In this document: positions 36,327 through 58,491 of the stretch, one piece after another
Layout of the letters: each line of letters opens with the position of its first letter
Position numbering within the stretch: the stretch's first letter is position 1
Assembly: GCA_027593235.1 (NCBI GenBank)
Contig: JAQCIU010000011.1
Location: 29,775 to 93,774 of the forward strand
Length of the DNA: 64,000 nucleotides
Source: Chloroflexota bacterium
GTDB taxonomy: Bacteria > Chloroflexota > Dehalococcoidia > UBA2979
Reading direction: 5' to 3'
Made by a program: the position numbers and the translations under genes
The notes under the pieces: model-generated
Told to the model about the DNA's origin: nothing
The model's database searches: none
What the model saw: the letters and a program-made list of their open reading frames with translations, nothing else

Positions 36327-36887
36327 TCAGGCAGCGCGGCGAATGCGGATCCGACTGCGCGGGGTTGCGACCAGCGACAACGCTTCGAGTCCCTGACGGT
36401 GCCAGTCGTTCGCCTCGGTTGGGCTGACCGCACAGGTCACGGCGACCTGGTCGTTCGAGAGGCCGAAGAAGTGACGCAGGCTGACGATCTCGCGCAGGCG
36501 GCGCGGCAGCATGAACAGCTCCGCGACGACCGGGTCATTCGTTGCCAGTGCCAGATCAGGGGCGTCGTCCGGGTTCACCTCGTCGTGGGCGAAGCGGAGG
36601 AGCCAGAGATCGAACTCCTCGGGACGGTCGAGTGACGGCAACTCGCGCCACGCCCGGAGGAACACGAGGCGGAGACGCCGATCGCGCTCGCGCTCGTCCG
36701 GGAACGCGGGTGCGATATAGGTCGCCACCGATCGTGCCTTGGCGTAGTACAGCATCATGAACGACGCCGCGTCGCCCCGGCTGGCCGAGTCGATCGTGTC
36801 GACGGTGAAGCGGGCGGCGTGAGCGGCGCGTTGCTCGGGAGTGTCGTGCCGCTTCAGCGGGTTGCGGGGCAGCAGTGAGGAGATCAT
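36327..36887 (-). CDS. Degenerate ECF sigma-70-like protein
   Basis: Region-2-like GDAASFMMLY...VFLRAWRELPSL....FDLWLLRFA and region-4-like LPRRLREIVSLRHFFGLSNDQVA; ATGA overlap with the upstream gene. Confidence 0.6.
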   Translation of the reverse strand: MISSLLPRNPLKRHDTPEQRAAHAARFTVDTIDSASRGDAASFMMLYYAKARSVATYIAPAFPDERERDRRLRLVFLRAWRELPSLDRPEEFDLWLLRFAHDEVNPDDAPDLALATNDPVVAELFMLPRRLREIVSLRHFFGLSNDQVAVTCAVSPTEANDWHRQGLEALSLVATPRSRIRIRRAA

Positions 36888-39460
36888 GCGGACCACTCAA
36901 TCCGCTCGATGCCGCTGAAGTCGACGGTGCCCCCGTCGCCGACGGTCATGGTGCCGCTGGAACCGGGACTGAGGACCATGTAATCCGCTCCGCTCTCGAC
37001 GACCGAGCCACTTGAAAGCGAGTAGTCCCACGCTGGCGTTCCACCACCGTCGTCGTCCGCGATGCGGATCGTGTCGGTGCCGGATCCGCCATCGATCACG
37101 TCGTGACCGCTCGTTGAACCGACGTTGAAGACGTCGTTCCCGGACTCGCCCTCGAGCGTGTCGTTACCAGCGCCGCCAGTGATGACGTCGTTGCCAGAAC
37201 CGCCGCGGATCGCGTCATCGCCGGCCGTGCCGGTGATCGTGTCGTTTCCGGATCCGCCGTCGATGCGCTCGATGCTATTCAGTGCCGGTCCTGACGACAG
37301 GTCGATCACGTCGTCGGAGCTGGTGCCCGCGAGGGTGTCGAAGCCATTGCCACCATCGATCGACTCGATCGACTGCATGTTGGCGAGGTTCGAGGTGACG
37401 CGAATGGTGTCGTTGCCGGACGAGCCTCGGACCGTGTCGAAGCCGTCGCCACCGTCGAAGGTGTCGGTGCCCTGGTAGTGGCCAACCACCTCGAAGGTGT
37501 CATCGCCGCCGCCACCGAAGATCGTGTCGTCGCCGCCGGAGCCGCGAATGGTGTCGTTGCCGGACGTGCCGGTGATCGTGTCGTTTCCGTCGCCCCCGTC
37601 GATGCGCTCGATGCTGTTAATCGAGGGGCCAGAGGAGAAGTCGATCACATCGTCACCGCTGGTACCCGCGAGCGTGTCGAAGCCATCGCCCCCGTCGATC
37701 GACTCGATCGACTGCATGTTGGCGAGGTTCGAGGTGACACGGATCGTGTCGTTGCCGGACGAGCCTCGGACCGTGTCGAAGCCGTCGCCACCGTCGAAGG
37801 TGTCGGTGCCCTGGTAGTGGCCAACCACCTCGAAGGTGTCGTCGCCGCCGCCACCGAAGATCGTGTCGTCGCCGCCGGAGCCGCGGATCGTATCGTTGCC
37901 TGCGGTGCCGGTGATCGTGTCGTTGCCGTCGCCGCCGTCGATGCGCTCGATGCTGGTGATCGAGGGACCCGAGGACAGGTCGATTACGTCATCGGAGCTG
38001 GTACCGGCGAGCGTGTCGAAGCCATCGCCACCGTCGATCGCCTCGATCGACTGCATGTTCGCGAGGTTCGAGGTGACACGGATCGTGTCGTTACCGGACG
38101 AGCCGCGCACGGTGTCGAACCCGTCGCCGCCGTCGAAGGTGTCGGTGCCCTGGTAGTGGCCGACCACCTCGAAGGTGTCGTCGCCGCTGCCACCGAAGAT
38201 CGTGTCGTCGCCGCCGGAGCCGCGGATGGTGTCGTTACCGGACGTGCCGGTGATGGTGTCGTTGCCGTCGCCACCGTCGATGCGCTCGATGTTCGTGACC
38301 GAGTAGATCGAGGAGAGGTCCATGACGTCGTCGCCGCTGGTGCCGGCGATCGTGTCGAAGCCGGCGCCGCCGTCGATGACCTCGATTGATTGCATGTTGG
38401 CGAGGTTGGAGGTGACACGGATCGTGTCGTTGCCGCTCGAGCCCTGGACGGTGTCGTAACCCTCCATGCCCTGGAATACGTCGGTGCCCTGGTAGTGACC
38501 CGACGTGCGGAAGATGTCGTCGTTCGCGGTGCCGGTGAACACCTCGTCCGCGCCGGTGCTGACGAAGGTCTCACCAGGAACGGTTGGTCCTGGCGGCGGC
38601 TCGACGATGACCTCCGGCACGACCTCCGTTACGACCTCGGCGACTGGATCTGGGGCGACGTCGACCGGTCCAGCGTCCGGTACGAAGACGAACGCGGGCG
38701 CGGGGTCGCCGGCCGGCGGTGCCGGAGGTGCCGCGTCGACCGCCGGCGCGTCGAGCGGGGCGATCGATGGCAGCGGGTCGTGGTGATCGAGGTCCAGTCC
38801 GGGCACATCGAGGTCGGCAATGAAACCGAGCGGTGCGTCGGGCTGATCCGCCGACCCCGGCGCCGTCGGGAAGGGAAGCGGCGCGTGGCCGCCCACGGTG
38901 TCCTGCACCGGCACGGGCGCATCTCCGCCGGAGAGCAGCGAGGGGAGGGCGTCGGCCAGCGCGGGATGTGCCGCGGCGACATCGACGATCTGCGGAGCGA
39001 GGTCCTGGAGGTGCGGGGTCAGGCTGAGGTGCGGCCCGGGCGGTCCGCCGCCGCCGGGACCGTCGAGGAGCTGCACCGCGGCTGGCATGCCACTGTCGCC
39101 AGCTTGAGGACCGGAGGGACCATCCATCGCCGCGTTCGCGCCTGCAAGGCTGGTGAACAGGATCAGGCCACCGACGGCAGCGAAGCCGACCGGTTGCGCC
39201 TGCGCGGCGAACTCCTCGCCCAGGAGACGGACCATCTCGTGCTGCTGTGCGGTGAGCCCGAGTTCCGGCTCCAACGAGAGCCAGACGTGCTCGAGATCGA
39301 GTGTCTGTGACTGCGCGTAGCGTTCCAGCACCTCGCGGGTGCGGCGGAGCTGAGGAGCGAGTTGCTGCTCCGTGGCGCCCCGGAGCGCCTGGATTTGCAG
39401 CCTCACCTCAGCGAGATCGACGCGGTCGTGCAGTGCGTTGCGATCGATAGAGGTCGTCAT
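36884..39460 (-). CDS. Large RTX-like Ca-binding repeat protein with N-terminal helical domain, hydrophobic segment and Pro-rich linker
   Basis: Many GGxGxD nonamers (GGDGNDTI, GGDGFDTL); hydrophobic GFAAVGGLILFTSLAGA; ATG at 39460. Confidence 0.85.
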   Translation of the reverse strand: MTTSIDRNALHDRVDLAEVRLQIQALRGATEQQLAPQLRRTREVLERYAQSQTLDLEHVWLSLEPELGLTAQQHEMVRLLGEEFAAQAQPVGFAAVGGLILFTSLAGANAAMDGPSGPQAGDSGMPAAVQLLDGPGGGGPPGPHLSLTPHLQDLAPQIVDVAAAHPALADALPSLLSGGDAPVPVQDTVGGHAPLPFPTAPGSADQPDAPLGFIADLDVPGLDLDHHDPLPSIAPLDAPAVDAAPPAPPAGDPAPAFVFVPDAGPVDVAPDPVAEVVTEVVPEVIVEPPPGPTVPGETFVSTGADEVFTGTANDDIFRTSGHYQGTDVFQGMEGYDTVQGSSGNDTIRVTSNLANMQSIEVIDGGAGFDTIAGTSGDDVMDLSSIYSVTNIERIDGGDGNDTITGTSGNDTIRGSGGDDTIFGGSGDDTFEVVGHYQGTDTFDGGDGFDTVRGSSGNDTIRVTSNLANMQSIEAIDGGDGFDTLAGTSSDDVIDLSSGPSITSIERIDGGDGNDTITGTAGNDTIRGSGGDDTIFGGGGDDTFEVVGHYQGTDTFDGGDGFDTVRGSSGNDTIRVTSNLANMQSIESIDGGDGFDTLAGTSGDDVIDFSSGPSINSIERIDGGDGNDTITGTSGNDTIRGSGGDDTIFGGGGDDTFEVVGHYQGTDTFDGGDGFDTVRGSSGNDTIRVTSNLANMQSIESIDGGNGFDTLAGTSSDDVIDLSSGPALNSIERIDGGSGNDTITGTAGDDAIRGGSGNDVITGGAGNDTLEGESGNDVFNVGSTSGHDVIDGGSGTDTIRIADDDGGGTPAWDYSLSSGSVVESGADYMVLSPGSSGTMTVGDGGTVDFSGIERIEWSA
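37220..38560 (-). repeat. 339-bp (113-aa) tandem repeats, about 4 copies (first one partial)
   Basis: GHYQGTD.F.G...IRVTSNLANMQSIE..DGG recurs 4 times; near-identical antisense ORFs start 339 bp apart (37497, 37836). Confidence 0.92.
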
Positions 39461-39645
39461 CGGGCACCCAGATCCTGGTGACCGCGGGGAAACACGGTCA
39501 GGGGTTTCCCTGATCGTCGTCCGGTGCCGCTGATTCCTTGAGGAAATACGCCGAAGGCCGTGGATGGTGACCTCAGCGTGAGGGTACTGACGGGCGAGCG
39601 ATCGCATGCCGAACGGCCGGGCGCTGATGGACCGACGGTGGTTGG

Positions 39646-41766
39646 TTAGGCGGCGAGGCTTCCGCGAGCGGCGAGCAATGCGCGACGGACCAGCGCGAAC
39701 TCCGCCGTCAGCGCGTCGGCCGCCGATCGTGCGGCGACGAGGTCTTCGGCCTCGACGGACTTGAGCAGCCAGGCGGTGCGTCGCTCAAGCCGACGGGCGC
39801 CGAGGAGGCGACAACTCGTCGTGATGCTGCGCGCGATCGGATCGAGGGTGGGGGCGCTGAGCGCGAGCGCGGCGTCACGGGCCTGGAGGAGTTGGCGTGG
39901 CGTCGCGTCGAGGAATGCGTCGATCAGATCGGCGACGAGACGCTGTTCACCGCTGGGATCGAGATCGTGAATGCGACTCAACACCGCTTCGTCTATTACC
40001 GGGTCATCGATCACCGGGGCGGTGTCCGCGGCGGCGGCCGTGCGACGACGCATCGCCGCGATGCCGTCGCGCAGCGAGGCGAGGTCCAGCGGCTTCTCGA
40101 TTACCCCGTCGAAGCCCGCCGCCAACGCTTCACTGCGGGCGCGGCGACGCGTATCGGAGGTCACGGCCAGGATCGGCAGATCGCGATAGCTATCGGTGCG
40201 CTGGCGAATCGCGTTCGTGGCGGAGATGCCATCGAGCACGGGCATGTGTAGCTCTGTCAGGATGGCGTCAATCCCCTCGGGCGAGGCGTCGAGGGTCTCA
40301 ATCGCGGCGGCGCCGTGACTGGCGAACGTGACCTGGTGCCCGAGCTGCTCCAGGAGTTGGCCGGCCACCTCGGCCTGGACCGCGCTGTCATCGACGAGCA
40401 GCACGTGTAACGGGCGAGCGTCCCGCGTCTGACTGGACGGCGCGCGAGCCGCCAGTTCGATCAGGGTGGCGCGTGGCAGCGGCAGCTCGAGGCGAAGGTT
40501 CGTGCCGACGTTGATGCGGCTCTCGACGGTTAGATCCCCACCCATGCCGCGCGCGAGCAGACGAGCAATCGGCAGCTCGAGCCCGGTGCCACCGGAGCGA
40601 ATCGACCACATCGCCGACGGCGACTCGAGCCCATCAAAGATCCGATCGATCGCTTCAGGGCTGAGGCCGCGGCCGCGGTCTTCGATTGTCAGAACCATCA
40701 GGGAGTCCTCGACCCCGTGATCGATCTCCTCGACGTTGACGAAGACCTCGCCACCTGCGTTGGTGCCGAGGGCGACGCCGATCAGGAGATCGAGGATCTG
40801 CTGGACCTGCTCGCGGTCGCCGGCGAAGTGCTCGGCAAACTCCAGGGGGTAGCGCGCGACGAGGGTGGTCGCGGCGGCTTCGGCGCCGGCGCGGTGGTCC
40901 GCAATCGTGACATCCATCGCGTCGCGGAGGGAGAAGGGTTCGCGGACGGGTGCGAAACGCTCCGCATCCAGTTCCATGAACTCGATCAGGTGATGGACGA
41001 ATTTGAGGAGGTGCTGGCCGGAGCTGGCGATGACGCCGTTCCAGGCCCGCTGCTTCGCGCTGAGGTGGGTGGTACCGAGCAGTTCGGAGATGCCGAGCAT
41101 GCTGTTGAGTTGACCGCGGAGCTTGTGGTTGATGGTGGCGAGGGCACGGGAGCGCATCGCGGCGAGGCGTTCGGCGCGATCTGCCTCGTGCTGGGCTTCG
41201 GTGTGATCGGTGACGACGACGAGCGTTTCGGAGATCTCCGCGGTGTCATCGCGCAGCGGTGTGCAGGTCACGCCGAGGACGAGGTCGTCGATCTCGATGG
41301 AGACGGAGGTCGTTTCACCACGCAGCGAGGCGCGGATGGCCTCGATCTAATCTGGCCACTCGCGGAAGAGCTGGACCATCTCAGCGCCGCTGGCGGTGGC
41401 AAGCGAGAGGGTAGTTCCGGGGACGGGCCGTCCGGCAAACCAAGTGATCGTGCCCTTTCGTCCGACAGCGAAGATGGAGATACCGGGAACGGCGAGCCCC
41501 TGGTGCAGACGTCGTTTGACCTCGCCAAGTTCGCGCAAGGTGCTGCGGAAGCGGCGATCGCGTGCGCGCACGACGAGGATGGCCGTCCCGACCACCACGA
41601 CGACAAAGATCGTCAGGGCACCGACAAGTTCGAGGATGGCCGCGCCGCCTTTCCAACTCTTGTGTTGACCGTCGGCGGCTCGAGGTGCGCAGTGAGGGGC
41701 TCGCGATGGGGGTTTCCCCTGCGTTCGTCGCGATCGCTGGGCTGACGGGGGCCGCACCGCCCGCAT
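39646..41766 (-). CDS. Hybrid sensor histidine kinase-like protein (TM-PAS-like-HisKA-HATPase-REC-HPt), degenerate; in-frame TAG at 41347-41349
   Basis: NHKLRGQLN H-box, IEDRGRG and GGTGLEL G boxes, REC VLLVDD...TELHMP...KP, HPt-like C-terminus; ORFs 41347..41766 and 39646..41271 are in frame across one TAG; true start uncertain. Confidence 0.8.
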
Positions 41767-42784: not shown

Positions 42785-43425
42785 CGACGAACGCAGACGG
42801 ACCTTCCGCGGTACCCGAGAAACGCCTGCGGAAGCGCCGCGCTCCCGGTACTGGCCGCAAGCGAGTTCCGCGCCCGCCGCTTACCTCGATCGGCTGGCGC
42901 GAGTGGGTGGAGTTGCCCGATCTGGGGGTGCCCGCGATCAAGGCAAAGATCGATACCGGCGCGCGCACCTCAGCGGTCCACGCGTTCGACATTGAGATCT
43001 TGCCGGAGGACGGGGTGGAGATCGTTCATTTCCAGATCCACCCGTTGCAGCACCGCGGTGCGGCACCGATTTCGGCGTCGGCTCCACTGGTGGGCTGGCG
43101 TCGGGTGCGTTCGTCGAGCGGGCATGAAACGCAGCGTCCGCTGATCCGCACCACGCTCGCCTGGCTCGATCGGCGCTGGCCAATCGACCTGACACTGACC
43201 AGCCGCGATGAGATGGGCTTTCGGATGTTGCTGGGACGGCGCGCCTTGCGCGGGCAGGTGCTGGTCGATCCCGGACGGTCATTCATCGATCGCGAGCGGC
43301 GGAACCTGGGACGCGAGCTGACTGCCGCGGTTCCGCGACGCCCGCGGCGGACGAAGGTCGCACAGATCGAGGACGGTTTGATCGTCCCCGCGACCGACGC
43401 GCCGCCGGCTTCAGCGGTGAGCTAG
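42781..43425 (+). CDS. RimK-associated putative aspartic protease (Zn_protease family)
   Basis: IGWREWV, AKIDTGARTSAVHA, VRSSSG, RDEMGFRMLLGR, VDPGRSF. Confidence 0.9.
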   Translation: MTTNADGPSAVPEKRLRKRRAPGTGRKRVPRPPLTSIGWREWVELPDLGVPAIKAKIDTGARTSAVHAFDIEILPEDGVEIVHFQIHPLQHRGAAPISASAPLVGWRRVRSSSGHETQRPLIRTTLAWLDRRWPIDLTLTSRDEMGFRMLLGRRALRGQVLVDPGRSFIDRERRNLGRELTAAVPRRPRRTKVAQIEDGLIVPATDAPPASAVS

Positions 43426-43630
43426 CAGCACCGCCGCCCGTGCGTCCTACGGGTTGACCCGGGTCCCAGTACGAATGGCCCGGGACCGCTGACGAGTTGA
43501 TTACTGATTTCACTCTTGCGGGGAAGCCCGTACGCGGGCGAACCTCCCACTCTTTCACGCTCGATTGAAGGCCGCGCGCCAGCAGGTGCGTACGTGCCTG
43601 CGTCGCGATTGCGTGGAGTGGAGCAGAGCG

Positions 43631-45169
43631 GTGACGAACGTCGTCAATATCGATCGGACGGACCACGACGGTGGAGCACCCGAGGGCAGCGCCGACGCTG
43701 ATCTCGCGGCACGGCTCCGGCGCCAACTGATGCTGGCACGGGATGCGTCGGCATCCGCGCGAGCGGCGATCGATGTGTTGAGCGAGGCGGGGTCACTCGC
43801 GCAGGGCCGGGGATTCGCCGCCGTCAACCAGCAGCTCGATCAGACGGCCGGCGAACTGGGCGACAACGTGAGCGCGATGGAGCTGTCGCTTGGCGAGGTG
43901 ATCGCCGCGGTCCGCGAGTTCACGACATCGATGTCCACGTTCCAGACCGCATACGTCGAACTGCACGGGGATATCGAGGCGATTCGACGCGCGACGGAGC
44001 AGATTGTCGACATCGCCCGGCGATCGAATCTGTTTGCGTTCAACGCCCGGATCGAGGCGGCGCGGGCAGGGGAGGCGGGTGCAGGCTTCAGCGTGGTGGC
44101 GACGGAGATCGGGCAACTGTCGGAGCAGACGCAGGAGCTGAGCACCTCGATCGTCGCGAGCGTGGGGTCGGTGGAGTCCTCTTTGGAGCGGACCACCAAG
44201 CTGGTGGACCACAACCGGGCGGTGCTGGAGGTGGCGAACGATCAGTCGCGCGACGCCTCACAGATCCTGGCGCGCACGGTGGACGTGGTGGCACGGCAGG
44301 GCGAGATGCTGGGCGAGGTTACGGGCGAGGTGGAGCGCATCGCTTACAACCAACTCGAGATCCAGGAGTTGCTCGAGCGCAGCCGGCGTCAGGCGGAATG
44401 GGCGCAGCAGGCATCCTCGGCGCTGGTCAGCGGCCCGGAGGGGACCGCGCAACTGGTCTCGCGCCGGCGCGAGGCGGCTGCGCCACGGGCGCTGCGCGAG
44501 GGGTTGCGCGGACTCGTACCGTTCGGCGAGGCGTTCGTTGGGGCGTTGAAGCGGGAGGACGTGACGGCGGCCTCGCGCGCGGTCGCCTCGGCACTGCGCG
44601 CGGGAGCGCCGGCCGAGGAGTTGCTGCAACTGGTGGCGGACGCCAGTGCACGAGTGCAGCTCGAGGACACCTCGCACGATCCGCCGACGGAGGCGTACGT
44701 CTTGCGCGGGTTGATCCTGGAAGAGGCGCTCGACGCGCTGGAACCCGAGATCACGCAGCGCGAACGCGCCGGTCAGCCGGTGGTGGTGCTGGGCAACGCC
44801 TTCGAGGACTACCACGACCTTGGCCGGCGATTGGTCGGAATTTCGATGCGCGCGGCAGGGTTCCGCGTGATCGACCTCGGGCTGAGCGTGAAGAACGATG
44901 AGTTCGTGCGCGTGGCACGGGCCGAGCGCGCGGATGTGATCGGCGTGTCGGCGGTGCTGCTACACACGGCGCGCTGGATTCCGGATCTGAAGACGAAACT
45001 GAAAGAGGCGGGCCTAGGGGAGGTAGCGGTGATCGCGGGGGGCGCACCGTTCCTGGTGGATCCGCAGTTGCGCGATCGGTTCGGCGCGGATGGGGTTGGG
45101 CGCAATCCGGACGACGGGGTGCGGCTGGTGCGCTACTTCGCTTCGCAACGACGGGGCGTAGCAGCGTGA
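43631..45169 (+). CDS. Soluble MCP signalling domain fused to B12 cap and cobalamin-binding domain
   Basis: [38 protein letters not shown] (MA hairpin); C-terminal [14 protein letters not shown]...VIDLG...IGVSAVL...AGGAPF...GADG (DxHxxG, SxL, GG); no TM. Confidence 0.9.
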
Positions 45170-45218
45170 GCGCGGCGACGGCAGGACCGAGCGCGGTTGG
45201 TGCTCAAGGAGGCGCGGC

Positions 45219-46259
45219 GTGAACTCAGTTGAACGGGTGATGGCGGCGGTGGGTGGTCAGCCGGTAGATCGGACGCCGGTACTGCCGGCGCTGCTCCAAC
45301 AGGGCGCGCGTGAACTGGGGATCGGACTCTCCTCGTACTTCGGCCAGCCGACGCGACTGGCGGAGGGGCAGGCGCTGTTGGTGGAGCGGTACGAGCACGA
45401 CGGTGTGTTCGCGTTTCCGCACGTGGTGCAGGACACGCTGCCGTGGGGCGCGGGCCTGAATTTCCATGATGACGGGCCGCCCTCGGTGAACCGGATGGCG
45501 ATCAATCGGTACGAGGAGATCGAGCAGCTCCCGAACGCCGACCCGACAGCGCACCCCTATCTGAAGGGAACGCTGAAGGCGGCAGAGCAGCTGTCCAAGC
45601 GGTATGGCGGGGATCGCCTGATCGTGGGTGCAGTGATCGGTCCGTTCTCGTTGCCGACGTTGCTGATGGGGACCGGCAAGTTCCTGGCGCTGGTGTTGCA
45701 CCACGAGCGCGAGCGGGAGCTGTACCTGCGGACGCTGATGAGGAAGATGCTGGCCTATTCGACGGCGTGGGCGAACGCGCAGCTCGAGGCGGGATGCGAC
45801 CTCGTGGTGGTTGCGGAGGGGATCGCCTCGGCGACGGTGATCAGCGAGCGGACGTTCCTGCGCGACGCGCTGCCTCAGCTGCAGGCGTTCGTGCGCGGGG
45901 TACGCGGTCCGGTCGGTGTGGAAATGGTCGGTGACGCACTCCCGTTCGCGGCGCACCTGAAGAGCTTGCCGTGTGCGGCGTACCTGATCGGCAGCACCGA
46001 TCCGGTGGTGGCGATGCGGCGGACGATCGGGCCGGGGAAAGCGTTGATCGGCAACGTGAACAATTTGAAGCTGATCCGCTGGGATGCGGAGCGCGTGGAG
46101 TTCGAGGCACTGCGGGCGATTGGCGAGGCGGGACCAGGCTTCATCCTGGGGAACCAGGGCCCGGAGATTCCGTGGTACGTCCCGGATGAGAACATCGCGG
46201 CGCTGGTGCAGGCGACGCGGAAGGCGCGGTTGGCGGTGGCAACTCCGGCGGCCGCCTAG
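45219..46259 (+). CDS. Uroporphyrinogen decarboxylase / MtaA-CmuA family protein
   Basis: MNSVERVMAA..G.PVDRTP, GPFSLP, QLEAGCD, LIGNVN, GFILG...EIP...ENIAA. Confidence 0.85.
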   Translation: MNSVERVMAAVGGQPVDRTPVLPALLQQGARELGIGLSSYFGQPTRLAEGQALLVERYEHDGVFAFPHVVQDTLPWGAGLNFHDDGPPSVNRMAINRYEEIEQLPNADPTAHPYLKGTLKAAEQLSKRYGGDRLIVGAVIGPFSLPTLLMGTGKFLALVLHHERERELYLRTLMRKMLAYSTAWANAQLEAGCDLVVVAEGIASATVISERTFLRDALPQLQAFVRGVRGPVGVEMVGDALPFAAHLKSLPCAAYLIGSTDPVVAMRRTIGPGKALIGNVNNLKLIRWDAERVEFEALRAIGEAGPGFILGNQGPEIPWYVPDENIAALVQATRKARLAVATPAAA

Positions 46260-46278
46260 TGCGGCGCGCCATGCGGGC

Positions 46279-48096
46279 CTATGGGCCGGCGCGAATGAGC
46301 TGGGTGAGTTCGACCTCCAGGTGGACGGCTGTGTTCAGTTCCGTCTCGAGCGCGATTCGAAGTGCTTCGACTTGATCGTGCGAGAGCGGCTCCTCCGCCA
46401 GCAGACGCGCGCGGACGGTGACGCCATTGCCCTCGATGTCGGTGGAGACGTCGACGGTGGCCAGTTCGACACCGGGAAGAGCACGGGTCGCGGTATCCAG
46501 GGTGCGTTCGGCGCGGGCGGTGCGCTGGTCGTGCTGGAACGCACGCACGCTGAGCCCGGCCAGCGGCAGGGCGACGGCGACGAGCAGGATGGCGAGGCCG
46601 ACGACGCCTCGCCCAAAGACACCGAACCGATCGGCGCGGTCCGCGTCTGGCCGGAAGCCGATCCAGAGGAAGGTGACGGCGGAGGCCGCGGCGATGGCGA
46701 CGAGGTTGGTTCCGAAGAGAAGCGCGGCGCCGGCGGCGTCCTGCCATTCGCCGAGGACCACGCCGACCGATGCAGCGGCGAGCGGGGGTACGAGCGCGGC
46801 GGCGACGGCGACACCCGGCAGCGCGGCGGAGAGACCGGGGCGGGAGAGGGTGTAGGCGGCGGCAATGCCGGATCCCAGCGCGACGAGAAGGTCGAGGAGC
46901 CCCGGCTGTGTGCGCGCCGCGATCTCCCCGGTGGATTCTGCGCCGGGAACGAAGAACGTGACGAGGAGGGCGATGGCGATCGCGGTGGCGGTGCCTGACC
47001 CGATCGATCCGAGGGAGATACGCAGTAGCTTCGCGTCGCCCTGTACGACGCCGAGCGCGACGCCGGCGATGGGGGACATCAGTGGCGCGAGGAGCATGGC
47101 GCCGATGACGACGGCGGCCGAGTCGAGCAACAGGCCGAGGGTGGCGACCGCCGCCGCGAGCAGCATGAGCACGTGGTAGTCGACGTCCGCACGCGCCGCG
47201 CGGCGGAGCTGCATGTAGGTGGCGATCTTCTCCTCTTCGGAGAGGGTGGGAAGCCGGTGGTAGAGCGGCTCCCAGATCCGGTGGAAGAGGCTGAGTGGAC
47301 GGGCTTCCGGGCGATTGACGATCAGCACGGGGCTAGCGGAGGGGAGCAGCAGTCGGCGCGGCAGCGCGGTGCGGCCGAGGCGGCGGATGACGCCCTGGCG
47401 CGGTGCGGCGACGATCGCGAGATCGACCGGACGGTCCGCCAACGCGTCGAGCACGGTGCCCTCGCGGGATCGCCCGCGGAGCGCGAGGGCTTCGCCGGTG
47501 ACGCCCGCGGGGAGCAGTTCGAGCGATTCAGCGGCGACCGCCGTTTGACGTTCGAGTTCCGCGTCGTCGGCGTCGTGCGCGATCACCCGAAGGACGTGTA
47601 GCGAGCCGCCGCCAGCGCTCGCGAGGATCGCGTCCGCGGTGTCGAGGGCGGTCTCGAGGCTGGGCCCGCGGTCGTCGGCAAGCAAGATCGAAGGCAGGCC
47701 CTCCGGGTGGAAGCGGCCGCGCAGGAGCAACGCGGTGCAAGGCGGCTGCGTGAAGAGCCGCGTGAATGCGTTCCGCTCCGCGCGCGGGATGGTGAGCTCG
47801 CCGGATTCCCAGTGGAGCAGCAGGGCCTGCGCCTCCAGTTCGCGCGCGGTCGCCTCGACTGCCCCGACCACGCTCTGCCCGAGGCGGGCGAGGATGCGGA
47901 TCTCAGCGCCGTTCGCGTCGAGCGCGGCGACGGCTTCGACGAGCCAGTCGGGGATACGGTCCGCCCGCAACGCGATGTCGTAGCTCAAGCTGCGGACGGC
48001 GACGAAGACGACCGATCCGCCATGGGCGCTGGCGAGCAGTGTGGCGATGCCGGCGGTGCGTCTGACGGCGGCGGCGGAACCGACGGGGACGAGCAC
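46279..48096 (-). CDS. DUF389 (TIGR00341-like) membrane protein with N-terminal USP-like domains
   Basis: LLLDSAAVVIGAMLLAPLM, DLLVALGSG, LPGVAVAAALVPP, LFGTNL; N-terminal LVPVGS and a USP-like pattern. Confidence 0.88.
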   Translation of the reverse strand: MLVPVGSAAAVRRTAGIATLLASAHGGSVVFVAVRSLSYDIALRADRIPDWLVEAVAALDANGAEIRILARLGQSVVGAVEATARELEAQALLLHWESGELTIPRAERNAFTRLFTQPPCTALLLRGRFHPEGLPSILLADDRGPSLETALDTADAILASAGGGSLHVLRVIAHDADDAELERQTAVAAESLELLPAGVTGEALALRGRSREGTVLDALADRPVDLAIVAAPRQGVIRRLGRTALPRRLLLPSASPVLIVNRPEARPLSLFHRIWEPLYHRLPTLSEEEKIATYMQLRRAARADVDYHVLMLLAAAVATLGLLLDSAAVVIGAMLLAPLMSPIAGVALGVVQGDAKLLRISLGSIGSGTATAIAIALLVTFFVPGAESTGEIAARTQPGLLDLLVALGSGIAAAYTLSRPGLSAALPGVAVAAALVPPLAAASVGVVLGEWQDAAGAALLFGTNLVAIAAASAVTFLWIGFRPDADRADRFGVFGRGVVGLAILLVAVALPLAGLSVRAFQHDQRTARAERTLDTATRALPGVELATVDVSTDIEGNGVTVRARLLAEEPLSHDQVEALRIALETELNTAVHLEVELTQLIRAGP

Positions 48097-55049: not shown

Positions 55050-55538
55050 TTACGAGGTGGGCGGCCAGTCGCGCATAGCCGCCTCGAGGCGGTCGAAGCT
55101 CACGCCGATGCCGTCGGCCATGCCGGTCGCGGCGGCGGCGTCCCGCGCCTCCTGGCTCTCGAAGCGCATCAACAGCGTGAGCGTGGTGCGGCCGTCCGCT
55201 TCGAGAAGCGTCATCGTGTTGAGCGTCTCGCCGTCGAAGCCGTCCATCCGCTCCGTCGATACGAGGCGTGAGGTCGGGGTCACCTCGGTGAACTTACCGC
55301 CGGTGCCGAACGAGCCCTCGTCGGGGTGCGACCACTCGTAGCGGTAGGCGCCGCCGACGCGGAGGTCGATCTCGCAGACGGGCATGTCCCAGCCGTCGGG
55401 GCCGAGCAGCCACCGCCGCACCAGTTCCGGCTTGGTGTGTGCGTCCCAGACGAGGCGCGCCGGTGCATTGAAGACGCGCTCGACGCACAGGTCGGTGGGG
55501 GCAGGGGTGGTCACGATCAGCGTTGGTTCAGCGGTCAT
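55050..55538 (-). CDS. SRPBCC (AHSA1-like) family protein
   Basis: ERVFNAPARLVWDAHT.PELV..W, EIDLRVGGAYR. Confidence 0.9.
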   Translation of the reverse strand: MTAEPTLIVTTPAPTDLCVERVFNAPARLVWDAHTKPELVRRWLLGPDGWDMPVCEIDLRVGGAYRYEWSHPDEGSFGTGGKFTEVTPTSRLVSTERMDGFDGETLNTMTLLEADGRTTLTLLMRFESQEARDAAAATGMADGIGVSFDRLEAAMRDWPPTS

Positions 55539-55668
55539 TGCGATCTCCTTCTGTGGTGTCCGGCGCCTGCATCTCCTCGAGGAGTGCATCGAGCCGGCGG
55601 TAGTTCGCTTCCCAGTGCTCCCGGTAGCCCTCGAGCCAGCCGACCGCCTGCGCCATGGGCGCGGCCTC
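55528..55668 (-). pseudogene. C-terminal fragment of an ArsR-family regulator
   Basis: EAAPMAQAVGWLEGYREHWEANYRRLDALLEE, typical of ArsR genes upstream of SRPBCC; HTH missing. Confidence 0.7.
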
Positions 55669-56602
55669 TCGAGCGGTGACTTCGTCCCGGCGCTCAGCGA
55701 GTTCTTCGGCTCAGGCGCCGGGTTGAGCGCCTCAGTGATCACCCGGCTCACGAAGCAATGGCAGGCCGAGCGGGCGGCCTTCGCGCGCCGCGACCTGCGC
55801 GCCGCCGACTACGTATATGTGTGGGCGGATGGCGTGCACTTCAACGTGCGCCTCGAAGAGGATCGCCTGTGCTGCCTGGTGATCGTCGGCGTCCGCGCAG
55901 ATGGGACCAAGGAGCTGGTCGCGATCGCCGACGGCTACCGGGAGTCGACCGAGTCATGGGCCGACCTGCTGCGCGACCTCAAGCGTCGTGGGATGCGTGC
56001 CCCCGTGCTCGCGGTAGGCGACGGTGCATTGGGGTTCTGGGGTGCGCTGCGCGAGGTCTTCCCGGCCACCCGCACCCAGCGTTGCTGGGTGCACAAGCTG
56101 GCGAACGTCCTGAACGCGCTACCGAAGTCGGCTCAGCCGACGGCGCGCCGGGCGCTCGCCGAGATCCGCGACGCCGAGGACCGCGATCACGCAGTAGCTG
56201 CCATCGCCGCCTTTGCTCGCGACTTCGCGAAGTGGCCGAAGGCGGTGGCAAAGGTGGTCGATGACGCCGAGGCGATGCTCGCCTTCCTCGACTTCCCCGC
56301 CGAGCACTGGGTCCACCTCAAGACGACCAACCCAATCGAGTCCACCTTCGCCACCGTCCGCCTGCGGACGCGAGTCACCAAGGGCCCCGGCTCGCGTGCC
56401 GCGGGACTGGCGATGGCGTTCAAGCTGATCGAGGCGGCTCAGCAGCGCTGGCGTGCGGTCAACAGCCCGCGTCTCGTCGCGCTCGTCCGTGCCGGCGCCA
56501 GGTTCGAGAAAGGAGTACTCATCGAGCAAGACCAGCAGCAGGATCAGGAAGCCGCCGCGTGATCATCCGGGCGCTCCGATCCACAACTCTTGGCGATATC
56601 TC
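55661..56602 (+). mobile_element. IS256-family insertion sequence, 5'-truncated (transposase ends at 56562)
   Basis: GLSSGDF..AL, YVWADG, VGDGALGFW, QRCWVHK, TTNPIES; putative right end ATCCACAACTCTTGGCGATATCTC. Confidence 0.92.
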
Positions 56603-56796
56603 AGCGACGCCATTGGTATGCCTCTATGCGGAGGAATGCCGACATCCTCGAGAAGCCGATTCTCGACGCCCAACTCCAAAAGGCCGAAACACCATTCGCA
56701 TGGGAGTGGCAGAAGGAAGATGATCAGTCAGAGGCTGTGTCGTCCACGGCCACCGAAATAGGAGTCGTGCTGGATCCGGAGGATCTCCCGTTCTAA
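56603..56796 (+). pseudogene. 3' remnant of a gene next to the IS end (acidic ...EDLPF tail)
   Basis: Lower-GC open frame abutting the IS end and terminating LDPEDLPF*. Confidence 0.45.
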
Positions 56797-56842
56797 TCCG
56801 CAGGCTTCCCCGTCTACCCGACCGCTCCGTACACTCCCTCCC

Positions 56843-57862
56843 ATGACCACTGACGCCACCACAGGCCTCGACGCCCTCGCCGCCGTCGACCGCGACGCCC
56901 GCACCACCCTCGCCGCCGCCGAGGACGAACCCACCCTCGAGGCCTGGCGCACCGCCATCCTCGGACGCAACGGCGCCCTCACCGGCATCCTCCGCGGCAT
57001 CGGCGCACTCGACGCCGAGCAGCGCAAAGCCGTCGGCCAGGCCGCCAACACCGTCAAACAACAGCTAGAAGCCGCCCTCGAAACCCGTCAGCTCCAACTC
57101 CGCGCCGCCGCCCTCGCCGGCGCCGAACCCATCGACGTCACCCTCCCCGGCCGCCCCCGCCGCATCGGCCGCCTTCACCCCGTCACCCAGACCATGCGCC
57201 AGATCCTCGACATCCTGCAGCGCCTCGGCTTCGCCGTCATCGAAGGCCCCGAAGTCGAACTCGACGAATACAACTTCGATCGCCTCCGCATCCCCGCCGA
57301 CCACCCCGCCCGCGACATGTGGGACACCTTCTGGATCGAAGAACAAGACGGTCGCCAGGGCGCCCGCCAGACCCTCCTCCGCACCCACACCAGCCCCATG
57401 CAAATCCGCTACTTCGAGGGCCATGAACCCCCCATCCGCGTCGCCGTCCCCGGCCGCTGCTACCGCTACGAAGCCACCGACGCCACCCACGAATGGATGC
57501 TCCAGCAAGTCGAACTCCTCGCCATCGACGAAGGCATCTCCCTCGCCGACCTCAAAGGCACCCTCCACGAATTCGCCCGCCAGATCTTCGGTTCCGACAC
57601 CGAAGTCCTCCTCCGCAACAGCTACTTCCCCTTCGTCGAGCCCGGCGTCGAACTAGCCGTGAAATTCCGAGGCCAATGGCTAGAAATCATGGGCGCCGGC
57701 ATGGTCCACCCAGAAATCATCGCCGCCGCCGGCTACGACCCAGAGCGCTACACCGGCTTCGCCGCCGGCATGGGCGTCGAACGCATCGCCATGCCCCTCT
57801 ACCAGGTCGACGACATCCGCAACTTCTACCAAAACGACCTCCGCTTCCTCTCCCAGTTCTAG
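56843..57862 (+). CDS. pheS: Phenylalanine--tRNA ligase alpha subunit
   Basis: IDVTLPG, HPARDMWDTF, LLRTHTSPMQ, YFPFVEP, GAGMVHP, GFAAGMGVER, DLRFLSQF. Confidence 0.98.
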   Translation: MTTDATTGLDALAAVDRDARTTLAAAEDEPTLEAWRTAILGRNGALTGILRGIGALDAEQRKAVGQAANTVKQQLEAALETRQLQLRAAALAGAEPIDVTLPGRPRRIGRLHPVTQTMRQILDILQRLGFAVIEGPEVELDEYNFDRLRIPADHPARDMWDTFWIEEQDGRQGARQTLLRTHTSPMQIRYFEGHEPPIRVAVPGRCYRYEATDATHEWMLQQVELLAIDEGISLADLKGTLHEFARQIFGSDTEVLLRNSYFPFVEPGVELAVKFRGQWLEIMGAGMVHPEIIAAAGYDPERYTGFAAGMGVERIAMPLYQVDDIRNFYQNDLRFLSQF

Positions 57863-58027
57863 GGGTCTTCGACCCCCTTGTTCCCTTCGGGCCAGCCTGC
57901 GCCCGTCCCACGCGCGTCCCACCTCCATGCGCCCGCGATCGTCCCGTCCCTCTGAATCCACGCCCGACGCCACCCTGGAAAACGCCCGCGCTGCGTTCGC
58001 CCCCTACCAAGCCCCCATCTACCGCCG

Positions 58028-58273
58028 AACGAACCGCGCCCGGGGCATCCTGCCCCGGTGAACCGATCGCCCCTCGATGCACCCCCACACCAACCCGCCA
58101 CCGCCCCACCCGCCGCCACCGAGCCCCCGCAACCATCGAGAAGCCCCCGGCTTTGGAGGGGGTCTGGGGGACGCACTCGTCCCCCCGGCGGGGGTGTCGG
58201 GGGCAAGCGCCCCCGACGAACGACACGCAGTACGAAGTCCGCTCGCAGCACAGCGGCAAGTCGCCGACCTCGA
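58028..58273. repeat. About 245-bp multi-hairpin intergenic repeat, copy 1
   Basis: AACGAACCGCGCCCGGGGCATCCTGCCCCGGT...GGGGGACGCACTCGTCCCCCC...GTCGGGGGCAAGCGCCCCCGAC...TCGCCGACCTCGA. Confidence 0.88.
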
Positions 58274-58491
58274 CGTCCGCTCGCCAGCGACTCCGCCCGC
58301 CGCCCGCAGAGCGGTCGAAAAAGATGGCTCCCCCCGCCGGGGATGTCGGGAGCCACGCCCGTCGGGCGATCAAACAAACAACGCGCCCCCGACGAACGAA
58401 CCTCCGCACACCACCTGCTCGCAGCGCAAACGAACGTCGCCGACCTCGAAACCCCACACGCAGCACTCTGGCTAACCGCTCGCCGTCCACA

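What the first reader, a model, noticed from the sequence alone, without database searches (positions are those of the whole stretch)
43631..46259. Chemoreceptor fused to a corrinoid protein, plus a partner UroD/MtaA-fold protein: candidate cobalamin/methyl-transfer-based sensory system
Seen: one TM-less ORF carries an MCP signalling hairpin ([30 protein letters not shown]), a helical cap-like region and a full base-off B12-binding signature (DYHDLG, GVSAVL, AGGAPF, GADG). The next gene is a UroD/MtaA-family protein. Known: corrinoid proteins (MtaC/MtbC-type) pair with MtaA/MtbA-type methyltransferases in methylotrophic methyl transfer, and MCPs normally carry their sensor N-terminally. Inference: methyl-transfer hardware has been reused for signalling, so the Co methylation/redox state, B12 occupancy or photolysis could modulate a CheA/CheW array. 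I know of no characterised receptor with this architecture.
Basis: partly seen in the sequence, partly recalled or inferred. Interest (0 to 1): 0.85.

Follow-up and report, generated by a model that had tools for sequence, protein, structure and literature searches.

The report
Chemoreceptor with a built-in B12 sensor
A soluble bacterial chemotaxis-type receptor carries a complete vitamin-B12-binding protein as its sensor and is always encoded next to a methyltransferase-like partner, which points to an undescribed way of sensing through B12 chemistry.

Summary
Window 43631-45169 (+) encodes a 512-aa protein without a membrane segment. It has an MCP signalling hairpin followed by a full corrinoid protein (helical cap plus Rossmann B12 domain, DxHxxG). 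Window 45219-46259 (+) encodes a URO-D/MtaA-superfamily protein.

The fusion is not an assembly chimera:
- 67 clusters from independent assemblies share the architecture.
- Contigs from two further studies bridge both junctions.

The gene pair is conserved: the partner lies directly downstream in 5 of 5 testable loci, and 27 further cases are supported by matching contig lengths.

The closest stand-alone corrinoid + URO-D pairs are followed in 33 of 39 cases by a DUF1638-type protein. These are mostly histidine kinases (25), and 2 carry GGDEF. No catabolic methyltransferase genes recur nearby. The pair therefore looks like a sensory input module wired to chemotaxis, phosphorelay and c-di-GMP outputs.

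Points that limit the reading:
- The partner lacks MtaA's His-Cys-Cys zinc ligands.
- The family lacks the CarH light signature (0 of 60) and conserved CheR/CheB methylation sites.
- CheA was not found in this 89.7%-complete MAG, but both congeners examined have it.

The signal itself (methyl donor, light, redox or B12 status) remains open. No description was found in the searched literature.

The parts
43426..43630 (+). 205-nt intergenic leader of the two-gene unit; GGAG at 43620-43623, 7 nt before the GTG start
   Evidence: Sequence read. No sigma-70-like promoter and no riboswitch or other Rfam family was found here.
43631..45169 (+). Gene for the 512-aa soluble MCP-corrinoid fusion protein
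   Evidence: ORF; Pfam; 67 clusters with the same architecture; AlphaFold2 model with mean pLDDT 83.6.
43685..44479 (+). MCP signalling hairpin (aa 19-283): N-arm helices 19-57 and 62-145, turn at aa 146, C-arm helix 147-283
   Evidence: Secondary structure of the model; MCPsignal hit at aa 99-247; PDB sequence hits to Thermotoga and E. coli MCP cytoplasmic domains.
44042..44101 (+). Hairpin tip motif [20 protein letters not shown] (aa 138-157), the presumed CheA/CheW contact region
   Evidence: N138, F153, V156 and A157 are invariant in 60 of 60 family members. The tip aligns without gaps to the tips of the three other MCPs of the genome.
44486..44749 (+). Helical cap of the corrinoid module (aa 286-373), joined directly to the C-arm
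   Evidence: Helices 286-293, 295-307, 311-323, 328-348 and 353-373; Foldseek and phmmer alignments to whole corrinoid proteins 4jgi, 7xcn_M and 3ezx.
44780..45163 (+). Rossmann-type B12-binding domain (aa 384-511)
   Evidence: Pfam B12-binding at aa 384-492; strand/helix pattern.
44807..44824 (+). D393-Y-H395-D-L-G398: lower-ligand (base-off/His-on) motif
   Evidence: D393, H395 and G398 are invariant; D.H..G is present in 60 of 60 members.
45207..45212 (+). AGGAGG ribosome-binding site of the partner gene, 6 nt before its GTG
   Evidence: Sequence read.
45219..46259 (+). Gene for the 346-aa URO-D/MtaA-superfamily partner, which lacks MtaA's zinc ligands
   Evidence: Pfam URO-D E 2.4e-43; below every NCBIfam cut-off; alignment to MtaA 4ay7; clade-specific residues; 86 close clusters.

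Best explanation
A two-gene sensory unit. Gene 1 makes a cytoplasmic chemoreceptor. Its four-helix signalling bundle (as a dimer) ends in a canonical CheA/CheW-binding tip. Its 'top' end carries a complete cobalamin-loaded corrinoid protein attached to the C-terminal arm, where a transmembrane MCP would have its HAMP and sensor domains. Gene 2 makes a URO-D/MtaA-like TIM-barrel protein that docks on the upper face of the cobalamin and sets (or reads) its upper-ligand state, most likely methyl-Co(III) versus demethylated cobalamin, in step with a small-molecule methyl donor/acceptor. Docking needs the helical cap to swing off the corrin, as in MetH and MtaC-type proteins. Because the cap is continuous with the C-arm helix, this movement would be passed down the bundle and change kinase control. 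Shown: the architecture, its conservation, the conserved gene pair, and the link of the sister pair to other signalling outputs. Inferred: cobalamin binding, docking, methyl transfer, the coupling path, and CheA as the target.
For: (1) Both domains lie on one chain, with an invariant DxHxxG and an invariant tip motif in 60 of 60 members.

(2) The family is real and under selection.
- 67 clusters at 90% identity carry both domains.
- 39 of 1,835,955,588 representatives at 50% identity reach E<=1e-30.
- Contigs of runs X3 and X4, from two other studies, bridge the MCP/cap junction and the junction between the two genes.
- Among the 40 of 54 strain differences that were listed, the fusion has 9 synonymous and 7 non-synonymous changes and the partner 17 and 3.

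(3) The partner lies directly downstream (-3 to +49 nt) in 5 of 5 loci with sequence there: the window, L088 (partial), L089, L090 and L092. These span GC 0.38-0.69. In addition, 27 of 70 fusion clusters share an identical longest-contig length with a partner cluster, 8 of them on contigs under 6 kb.

(4) The corrinoid module resembles methyl-transfer corrinoid proteins more than photoreceptors. Foldseek gives 4jgi TM 0.80, MttC 0.69-0.74, and CarH-type domains 0.34-0.50. The phmmer top hits are 1y80, 4jgi, MttC and MtmC.

(5) Sister module. Of 65 other loci retrieved with two B12-domain motifs, 58 have a URO-D homologue just downstream of a corrinoid gene of about 213 aa, mostly after 12 nt.
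- Of 39 third genes, 25 have HATPase_c, 2 have GGDEF and 17 have DUF1638 by Pfam.
- 33 of 39 have the roughly 205-aa DUF1638-like N-terminal domain by an HMM built here.
- 77 further neighbours in 13 loci show no recurring MttB, MtaB, pterin methyltransferase or RACo genes, but do show HATPase_c (6), REC (5) and PAS (4).

(6) In a tree of 76 URO-D proteins, the fusion-linked rows (24, SH-aLRT 85) and the triad rows (48, support 100) are sisters, set apart from 4 generic family members (97).

(7) DUF1638 is genetically tied to a B12-binding subunit of split methionine synthase (passages of PMC5764234 read).

(8) The predicted complex of the corrinoid module (aa 296-512) with the partner gave weak support.
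- Score 0.39, best of 3 controls 0.00.
- The mark was reached by 58 of 80 solved complexes and 2 of 110 mismatched pairs.
- Scores of 0.60 or under came from only 7 of those 80 and from both mismatches that passed.
- The runs agree in at least 77% of contacts, and the partner's pLDDT is at least 88.

(9) The genome has flagellin, three other MCPs and a CheW-domain protein. Both same-genus genomes examined (2 of 2) encode a CheA.
Against: - There are no experiments of any kind; cobalamin binding and methyl transfer are inferred from homology.
- The partner lacks MtaA's zinc ligands. H-x-C becomes E-M-V, and the second Cys lies in N-Q-G-P-E. The triad clade has H-x-A-S and N-H-G-E instead. Thiol-type methyl transfer is therefore unlikely, and a non-catalytic binding role cannot be excluded.
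- No reductive activator (RACo_C_ter), no DUF1638, and no second methyltransferase was found in the assembled genome. No third gene is conserved beside the pair. It is therefore unclear how a Co(I)/methyl-Co(III) cycle would be kept going.
- CheA's dimerisation domain, CheR and CheB were not found in this 89.66%-complete MAG. The only other CheW hit is truncated.
- The family has no conserved CheR/CheB methylation consensus: none in the window protein and at most 7 of 60 in any column.
- Its bundle is shorter than those of the genome's three other MCPs, so mixed arrays with them are not assured.
- The triad loci were picked by motifs taken from the fusion family and are unnamed metagenome contigs. 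They are a biased sample and include near-duplicates.
- The complex prediction is only weak support.
Confidence: 0.45

Rival explanations
1. B12-based light receptor. The Co-C bond of bound methyl- or adenosylcobalamin is photolysed, the resulting change in the corrinoid module switches the MCP (phototaxis or photophobic response), and the URO-D-like partner restores the alkyl ligand in the dark.
For: B12-binding domains are proven light sensors with varied outputs: HTH, diguanylate cyclase, GAF and MEDS (passages of PMC11796333; PDB photocobilin entries 8j2w-8j2y appear among the hits). The three runs that hold half or more of the stretch and were laid are aquatic, estuary and freshwater metagenomes. 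A dedicated re-alkylating partner would explain the conserved pair.
Against: The CarH-type signature (GxxW, EH, GxxH; conclusions of PMC11796333) is absent. G..W(6-12)EH occurs in 0 of 60 members and in 0 of 37 triad corrinoid proteins, and G..H..G in 3 of 60. CarH-type domains rank below methyl-transfer corrinoid proteins by fold (TM 0.34-0.50 against 0.69-0.80) and do not appear in the phmmer list at E<=1e-3. Photolysis yields cob(II)alamin, which needs a reductase before re-alkylation; none was found. MCP is not among the output domains named in the passages read; the supplements were not seen.
Confidence: 0.15
2. Sensor of cobalamin status or redox state without catalysis. The receptor reports B12 occupancy, or the Co(II)/Co(III) and His-on/His-off state (oxygen or redox taxis). 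The URO-D-like protein is a non-enzymatic tetrapyrrole-binding accessory, acting as a loader, chaperone or state-specific binding partner.
For: The zinc ligands of MtaA are replaced in the partner, and no activase or second methyltransferase was found. URO-D-fold proteins bind tetrapyrroles by nature (established knowledge). DUF1638, the domain that replaces the fusion in the sister module, co-occurs with a RamA-like reductive activator and is needed with the B12 subunit of split MetH, which suggests it deals with the corrinoid's oxidation state (passages of PMC5764234; passage of PMC12478193). The genome already couples chemotaxis parts to redox and gas cofactors: a protoglobin-MCP and a CheW-globin fusion.
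Against: The partner clade is strongly conserved (46-68% identity over 85 clusters). It keeps residues shared with the triad clade, with 21 invariant columns including R6, D17, Y40, Q51, D61, N279, W288 and E316, and shows mostly synonymous strain differences (17 against 3). This fits an enzyme at least as well as an accessory. Tightly bound cofactor domains are poor sensors of ligand availability.
Confidence: 0.25
3. The MCP module does not serve motility. The protein feeds a Che-like pathway with another output (gene expression, c-di-GMP or surface behaviour), or the hairpin is only a coiled-coil scaffold for a corrinoid enzyme.
For: CheA, CheR and CheB were not found in the MAG. The family lacks methylation sites and has a shorter bundle than the other three MCPs. 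A chemoreceptor-like protein that controls flagellar gene expression is on record (title and abstract of PMC12623472, listing).
Against: The tip residues that contact CheA/CheW in known MCPs are the best conserved part of the hairpin, which a mere scaffold would not need. The genome has flagellin and a CheW domain, and both congeners examined have CheA. The MAG is incomplete (89.66%).
Confidence: 0.1
4. Artefact: an assembly chimera or a frame-fused pair of separate MCP and corrinoid genes.
For: The source is a metagenome-assembled genome in 78 contigs.
Against: 67 clusters from many assemblies have the same chain. A 98%-identical 512-aa copy exists elsewhere (P0001). X3 record 2 and X4 record 11 bridge the MCP/cap junction, and X3 record 7 and X4 record 14 bridge the junction between the two genes. 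X1 to X3 may be the source; X4 is a strain variant from a third study.
Confidence: 0.01

Closest known systems
Soluble cofactor-based chemoreceptors (HemAT, Aer2, TlpD with its C-terminal CZB domain, PilZ-tailed MCPs); named from recall, except that a protoglobin-MCP of this kind is in the same genome
   Same: A cytoplasmic MCP hairpin with a canonical tip and a cofactor-binding sensor at the end of the bundle opposite the tip. In TlpD and the PilZ forms the sensor is also C-terminal.
   Different: Here the sensor is a whole corrinoid protein (cap plus Rossmann domain). A dedicated enzyme-like partner gene is conserved beside it. There are no conserved methylation sites. No member has been characterised.
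Corrinoid methyl-transfer systems: MtaC/MtaA, MtbC/MtbA, MtsB/MtsA, the O-demethylase corrinoid protein 4jgi, and CmuA (a methyltransferase-corrinoid fusion)
   Same: A corrinoid protein with DxHxxG and a helical cap is paired with a URO-D-fold protein encoded next to it.
   Different: Scores lie far below every NCBIfam cut-off. The partner lacks the His-Cys-Cys zinc site. No substrate-specific methyltransferase, second methyltransferase or activase lies nearby. The corrinoid protein is fused to a signalling domain.
B12-dependent photoreceptors (CarH/LitR, CtMerR, photocobilins with a GGDEF output)
   Same: A B12-binding domain used as the sensory input of a signalling protein, with modular outputs.
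   Different: The light signature is absent (0 of 60). The fold match is weaker than to methyl-transfer corrinoid proteins. Those systems have no URO-D partner, and no MCP output is named in the passages read.
DUF1638 proteins of split methionine synthase operons (Phaeobacter inhibens PGA1_c13340; Price et al. 2018, PMC5764234)
   Same: A protein module functionally tied to a separate B12-binding subunit. The sister cassette found here carries this domain at the N-terminus of its kinase or cyclase.
   Different: Those DUF1638 proteins are stand-alone and serve methionine synthesis, with no signalling output. The window's genome has no DUF1638 hit, so in the fusion family the covalent link seems to replace it.

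Membership tests
Methyl-accepting chemotaxis protein (MCP) | MCPsignal domain above Pfam's gathering score | tested here: met
   71.6 bits against a cut-off of 34.6, aa 99-247.
Methyl-accepting chemotaxis protein (MCP) | Conserved hairpin tip (N-A-x-I-E-A-A-R-A-G ... G-F-x-V-V-A) | tested here: met
   N138, F153, V156 and A157 are invariant; A139, I141, A143, G147, G150 and G152 are kept in at least 90% of 60 members. The tip aligns without gaps to three canonical MCPs of the genome.
Methyl-accepting chemotaxis protein (MCP) | CheR/CheB methylation consensus [ASTG]xx[EQ][EQ]xx[ASTG] at conserved positions | tested here: not met
   None in the window protein; at most 7 of 60 members in any alignment column. 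The motif was written from recall.
Methyl-accepting chemotaxis protein (MCP) | CheA and CheW present in the same genome | tested here: inconclusive
   There are two CheW-domain hits, one fused to a globin and one truncated. No H-kinase_dim, CheR or CheB hit was found in the 89.66%-complete MAG. CheA is present in 2 of 2 same-genus genomes and 0 of 3 other same-family genomes examined.
Methyltransferase-type corrinoid protein (MtaC/MtbC/MttC/MtgC) | Rossmann B12 domain with DxHxxG, plus the downstream S-x-L and G-G elements | tested here: met
   D393, H395, G398, S440 and G471 are invariant; L442 and G470 are kept in at least 90%. Pfam B12-binding E 1.9e-20.
Methyltransferase-type corrinoid protein (MtaC/MtbC/MttC/MtgC) | N-terminal four-helix cap | tested here: met
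   Helices at aa 286-373. Foldseek aligns about 208 columns to the 206-aa 4jgi, TM 0.80. phmmer aligns aa 306-498 to MtmC 13-209. Pfam B12-binding_2 itself gave no hit at E<=0.01.
Methyltransferase-type corrinoid protein (MtaC/MtbC/MttC/MtgC) | Score above a curated family cut-off (equivalog of a known corrinoid protein) | tested here: not met
   Best is TIGR02370 at 68.5 bits against 215.3; MtgC 66.8 against 370; MtbC 62.5 against 350.
MtaA/MtbA/CmuA methylcobamide methyltransferases | URO-D TIM-barrel fold | tested here: met
   Pfam URO-D E 2.4e-43, profile positions 4-345 of 346; phmmer to MtaA 4ay7, E 9.7e-12.
MtaA/MtbA/CmuA methylcobamide methyltransferases | Zinc site His-x-Cys ... Cys | tested here: not met
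   MtaA's LHICG aligns to VEMVG and its PGCGI to NQGPEI. E/Q/E is conserved in the fusion-linked clade and H...NHGE in the triad clade. That these MtaA residues are the zinc ligands is recalled, not taken from a call.
MtaA/MtbA/CmuA methylcobamide methyltransferases | Score above curated cut-offs | tested here: not met
   PRK06252 92.5 against 244; TIGR01463 69.7 against 235.4; MtaA 65.1 against 400.
Uroporphyrinogen decarboxylase HemE | Equivalog score (TIGR01464) | tested here: not met
   38.3 bits against a cut-off of 302.95.
CarH-type B12 photoreceptor | Light-response signature GxxW, EH, GxxH (PMC11796333) | tested here: not met
   G..W(6-12)EH in 0 of 60, W(9)EH in 0 of 60, G..H..G in 3 of 60. 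GxxxP was not tested.
Corrinoid + URO-D + DUF1638-kinase/cyclase cassette (defined here) | DUF1638-type domain on the signalling protein | tested here: not met
   No PF07796 hit in the own genome, and none in the fusion or the partner. The fusion family is a sister arrangement, not a member.

The most novel reading that the evidence does not exclude
The corrinoid protein plus its URO-D-like partner is a general, so far unrecognised sensory input module: a miniature methyl-transfer couple that reports a methyl donor/acceptor (or the state of the cobalt) by catalysis rather than by ligand binding. Bacteria have wired it to three different outputs. In the family seen here it is fused to an MCP for chemotaxis. 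In a much more widespread three-gene cassette it works through a DUF1638 docking domain on histidine kinases and on diguanylate cyclases. That would also give DUF1638 a function, as a reader of corrinoid-protein state.
Probability: 0.35. Interest if true: 0.9.

Novelty: new variant of a known kind. Interest (0 to 1): 0.8.

Why it matters
Chemoreceptors and sensor kinases are known to sense by binding ligands or through haem, flavin, zinc or bilin cofactors. Cobalamin has so far entered signalling only as a light-sensitive chromophore. A receptor whose sensor is a methyl-transfer-type corrinoid protein with its own enzyme-like partner would add a new cofactor chemistry to chemotaxis.

Together with the DUF1638 kinase/cyclase cassette, it would define a modular 'corrinoid-state' input used across several phyla. 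It offers a concrete, testable role for two poorly understood groups: DUF1638, and the many 'uroporphyrinogen decarboxylase family proteins' that are neither HemE nor MtaA. It could also reveal taxis towards methylated compounds, or responses to light or redox state, in uncultured aquatic bacteria.

Tried and rejected
**Searches that gave nothing useful**
- Scan of genome contigs with the whole-family alignment A1. I therefore could not inspect the large MAG contigs (for example the 362-kb, 164-kb and 131-kb contigs of P0014, P0016 and P0060) for che genes, activases or wider synteny.
- ESM Atlas: only generic MCP clusters, no structure search. Uninformative.
- Rfam on the whole window at gathering scores and on 43300-43800 at E<=1: no cobalamin riboswitch or other family; one chance-level miRNA match.
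- Promoter/terminator scan of 43300-46500: 0 promoter-like sites and 1 terminator-like site inside the gene, at the level expected by chance.
- The look-up of sequencing runs: no RNA holder listed, so nothing can be said on expression. Runs with small shares (X5-X20) were not used for habitat. X5 was laid and covers only 10 of 30 bins.

**Checks that came back negative**
- Own phylum: fusion not found in 400 other genomes at E<=1e-30.
- Relatives: not found in 40 genomes, of which 3 are same genus, 21 other same family and 16 other same class. This shows a patchy distribution but names no donor.
- Triple fusion (MCP-corrinoid-URO-D, about 860 aa): the 'near' search covered 281-896 aa, and no family hit carried PF01208. 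The 'longer' and 'shorter' options were not run.
- Window neighbours scanned by Pfam: hybrid histidine kinase, AstE/AspA, Zn_protease, DUF389, CorA, sulfotransferase, cyclase, RTX protein, sigma-70 r4, metallo-beta-lactamase, Zn peptidase and DEAD helicase. None is a che or B12 gene, and none recurs in L088-L092.

**Readings considered and dropped**
- The partner as the genome's HemE. It is the only URO-D hit, but its TIGR01464 score is 38 against a cut-off of 303.
- An exact heptad class for the MCP. I only note arms of about 127 and 137 residues and a shorter bundle than the other MCPs.

**Things not done**
- Supplements of papers were not opened. The cluster tables and Fig. S9 of PMC11796333 may list further output domains of B12 sensors, including some I could not see.


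Full report
**What is in the sequence.** Window 43631-45169 (+) is an open frame of 512 codons starting at GTG. A GGAG lies 7 nt upstream. Pfam places an MCP signalling domain at aa 99-247 (71.6 bits, cut-off 34.6) and a B12-binding domain at aa 384-492 (73.3 bits, cut-off 32.1) on this one chain. NCBIfam adds partial matches of aa 363-500 to methyltransferase corrinoid proteins (pyl_corrinoid, MtgC, MtbC), all far below their cut-offs. Fifty bases downstream, after an AGGAGG, lies 45219-46259 (+). It encodes a 346-aa protein that matches URO-D end to end (E 2.4e-43). It stays below the cut-offs of MtaA/CmuA (69.7 against 235.4), PRK06252 (92.5 against 244) and HemE (38.3 against 303). The protein has no hydrophobic segment (highest Kyte-Doolittle mean 1.21).

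**Anatomy.** An AlphaFold2 model built on 60 family members (mean pLDDT 83.6, pTM 0.61) has these elements:
- helices 19-57 and 62-145;
- a turn at aa 146;
- one long helix 147-283;
- five short helices at 286-373;
- a Rossmann domain at 384-511.

The sensor therefore hangs on the C-terminal arm, at the end of the bundle opposite the tip, next to the protein's own N-terminus. Foldseek matches the last 210 residues or so best to whole methyl-transfer corrinoid proteins: 4jgi TM 0.80, MttC 0.69-0.74, then MtmC and the MetH cobalamin domain. CarH-type domains follow at TM 0.34-0.50. The phmmer ranking against PDB sequences agrees. In the family alignment the following are invariant:
- D393, H395 and G398 (DxHxxG), S440 and G471;
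- in the tip, N138, F153, V156 and A157;
- D38 in the N-terminal helix.

G61 and F62, at the break between the two N-arm helices, are kept in at least 90% of members. These residues lie at the sensor end and may form the coupling surface (inference).

**Not an artefact, and a rare but conserved family.**
- A word-indexed search found 70 clusters (90% identity) at 30-46% identity, plus one at 98%. Of these, 67 carry both Pfam domains and 3 are short fragments. Named sources are MAGs of Eisenbacteria, Hydrogenedentes, Planctomycetes, Limnochordales and Thermoleophilia.
- A full HMMER pass over 1,835,955,588 representatives at 50% identity gave only 39 with E<=1e-30.
- The protein was not found in 400 other genomes of its phylum, nor in 40 relatives including 3 of its genus. 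The distribution is therefore patchy.
- Contigs of three studies hold the stretch. X1 spans it whole (possibly the source). X3 covers it in two pieces that each bridge a junction. X4, a strain variant from a third study, bridges the MCP/cap junction (record 11) and the junction between the two genes (record 14).
- Of the 40 listed strain differences (54 in all), the fusion has 9 synonymous and 7 non-synonymous changes, the partner has 17 and 3, and 4 are intergenic.

**The gene pair.** A metagenome scan was seeded with the B12 part only (alignment A2).
- It returned five family loci. L088-L090 have GC 0.66-0.69 and L091-L092 have GC 0.37-0.38.
- The URO-D homologue starts -3 to +3 nt from the end of the fusion gene in L088 (cut by the contig end), L089, L090 and L092. 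L091 ends before it could appear. With the window, that makes 5 of 5 testable loci.
- A search with the partner found 86 clusters at 36-99% identity, then a drop to 27% or less.
- 27 of the 70 fusion clusters share their exact longest-contig length with a partner cluster, 8 of them on contigs under 6 kb. This is a proxy for lying on the same contig.
- Nothing else is conserved around the pair.

**The unexpected relatives.** The other 65 loci of the same scan hold stand-alone corrinoid proteins of about 213 aa.
- In 58 of them a URO-D homologue (26-38% identical to the window's partner) follows, mostly after 12 nt.
- Six of the remaining seven have fewer than 250 nt of downstream sequence. One (L124) has about 1.07 kb and no hit.
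- For 39 loci a third co-directional ORF could be taken. Five more loci with over 1.9 kb downstream had none starting within 200 nt.
- Pfam finds HATPase_c in 25 of the 39, HisKA in 10, GGDEF in 2, REC in 3 and DUF1638 in 17.
- An HMM seeded on two Pfam-verified DUF1638 regions finds the same N-terminal domain of about 205 aa in 33 of 39.
- 77 further neighbours in 13 long loci show no recurring substrate methyltransferase (MttB, MtaB), pterin methyltransferase or RACo activase. The recurring families are HATPase_c (6), REC (5), PAS (4) and radical SAM (4).
- In a maximum-likelihood tree of 76 URO-D proteins the triad rows (48, support 100) and the fusion-linked rows (24, support 85) are sister groups, apart from four generic family members (97). 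The outgroup branches are long.
- Only 13 of the 24 'fusion-linked' rows are tied to a fusion gene: 4 directly and 9 through the contig-length proxy.
- These loci were chosen by motifs of the fusion family and include near-duplicates, so the counts describe that clade, not corrinoid proteins at large.

**Reading.** A corrinoid protein with a private URO-D-like partner recurs in front of three kinds of signalling output and away from catabolic methyl-transfer genes. In the triad, the signalling protein carries DUF1638. That domain has been shown genetically to be needed together with the separate B12-binding subunit of a split methionine synthase, and it co-occurs with a RamA-like activator (passages of PMC5764234; one passage of PMC12478193). 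In the window's family there is no DUF1638, and the corrinoid protein is instead fused to the output domain.

I therefore read the pair as a sensory input module. In my reading the URO-D-like protein sets or reads the upper-ligand state of the cobalamin, and cap displacement is the movement passed to the C-arm. A complex prediction of aa 296-512 with the partner gave weak support only:
- score 0.39 against 0.00 for the best of three controls;
- the mark was reached by 58 of 80 solved complexes and 2 of 110 mismatches;
- at 0.60 or under it was reached by only 7 of the 80 and by both mismatches;
- the runs agree in at least 77% of contacts, and the partner's pLDDT is at least 88.

**What speaks against a simple MtaA-like mechanism.**
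- In the alignment to MtaA (4ay7), the H-I-C of MtaA faces E-M-V and the G-C-G faces Q-G-P.
- Across 52 partners the fusion-linked clade keeps E ... N-Q-G-P-E, and the triad clade keeps H-x-A-S ... N-H-G-E.
- So neither clade has the thiol-activating zinc site. That those residues are MtaA's ligands is recalled. The triad clade could still bind a metal through His/His/Glu (inference).
- No RACo-type activase and no second URO-D protein was found in the assembled genome.

**Light.** The CarH-type signature given in PMC11796333 (GxxW, EH, GxxH, GxxxP; passages and conclusions read) is absent:
- 0 of 60 members have G..W(6-12)EH, and 3 of 60 have G..H..G.
- 0 of 37 triad corrinoid proteins have the first pattern.

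Photolysis of a methyl-cobalt bond is not excluded by this.

**Chemotaxis context.** The MAG (3.39 Mb, 78 contigs, 89.66% complete) contains:
- flagellin;
- four MCPsignal genes: this one, a protoglobin-MCP, a 4HB-HAMP-MCP (window 24832-27099, minus strand) and a NIT-HAMP-MCP;
- a CheW-globin fusion and a truncated CheW.

No CheA dimerisation domain, CheR or CheB was found. Both same-genus genomes examined (4.1 and 4.3 Mb) have one CheA, while 3 other same-family genomes have none. A CheA in the unassembled part is therefore plausible but not shown. The family has no conserved methylation consensus and a shorter bundle than the other three MCPs.

**Literature.** The following searches found no description of an MCP-corrinoid receptor or of the triad:
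- 'DUF1638' (4 papers);
- 'chemoreceptor' + 'B12-binding domain' (1 paper, on Myxococcus; listing only);
- 'corrinoid protein' + 'histidine kinase' + 'uroporphyrinogen decarboxylase' (2 papers);
- 'cobalamin' + 'diguanylate cyclase' + 'photoreceptor' + 'B12-binding' (3 papers);
- 'methyl-accepting chemotaxis' + 'cobalamin-binding domain' (1 paper);
- 'corrinoid' + 'sensor histidine kinase' + 'MtaA' (2 papers);
- 'cytoplasmic chemoreceptors' + 'B12' (1 paper);
- 'MCPsignal' + 'B12-binding' (0 papers).

The mec cassette for dichloromethane degradation has a kinase, a corrinoid protein and a URO-D-family protein side by side (passages and Table 2 of PMC9768040). Its kinase is described there as carrying a PocR domain, and the cassette is catabolic. 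The library lacks most subscription journals, and supplements were not opened.

**Verdict.** The mechanism and the signal remain inferred.
- Most likely (0.45): a corrinoid-state sensor whose state is set by the URO-D-like partner, probably by methylation.
- Rivals: a non-catalytic B12/redox sensor (0.25), a light sensor (0.15), a non-motility output (0.10), and an artefact (0.01).

Noticed in passing
Own genome G000:C40:3268-4428 (-), outside the window: A 386-aa protein with a CheW domain (aa 24-155) fused to a globin domain (aa 235-338). This is an unusual coupling-protein/haem-sensor fusion in the same genome.
   Followed up: partly
Own genome G000:C29:22924-23217 (+), outside the window: A truncated CheW (first 77 of 138 model positions) that ends in a stop. 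It is followed, in another frame, by ABC-ATPase-like sequence. It may be a pseudogene, a rearrangement or a misassembly.
   Followed up: partly
Metagenome loci L093-L157 (for example L099:7677-11021, L103:7710-12086, L123:7704-11046): A three-gene cassette: a corrinoid protein (about 213 aa), a URO-D-like protein (about 335 aa), and a DUF1638-histidine kinase or GGDEF protein. The DUF1638-like domain shows conserved Cys-containing motifs in the alignment consensus (C..N, FP..C..P, LG..C). No description was found in the searched papers.
   Followed up: partly
window 36884-39607 (-): A 907-aa protein with nine stretches of RTX calcium-binding repeats arranged in long near-identical units. It lies next to a hybrid histidine kinase (39646-41271, minus strand) and a sigma-70 region-4 protein (36327-36896, minus strand).
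   Followed up: no
window 55384-60400: A transposase-like ORF (55384-56562) is followed by a pheS-like gene (56843-57862). After that comes about 2.5 kb with strongly negative GC skew (to -0.31) and AT skew +0.37, holding only low-complexity Pro/Arg-rich ORFs on both strands. GC skew changes sign at about 56 kb. There is no Rfam hit anywhere in the window.
   Followed up: no
Own genome (whole assembly): The partner gene is the only URO-D-family hit. No hemE was found in the 89.66%-complete MAG, although it encodes globin-domain proteins.
   Followed up: no
window 24832-27099 (-): A second chemoreceptor on the same contig (4HB-HAMP-MCP, 755 aa), flanked by a zinc metallopeptidase and a DEAD-box helicase. 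No che genes lie nearby.
   Followed up: partly
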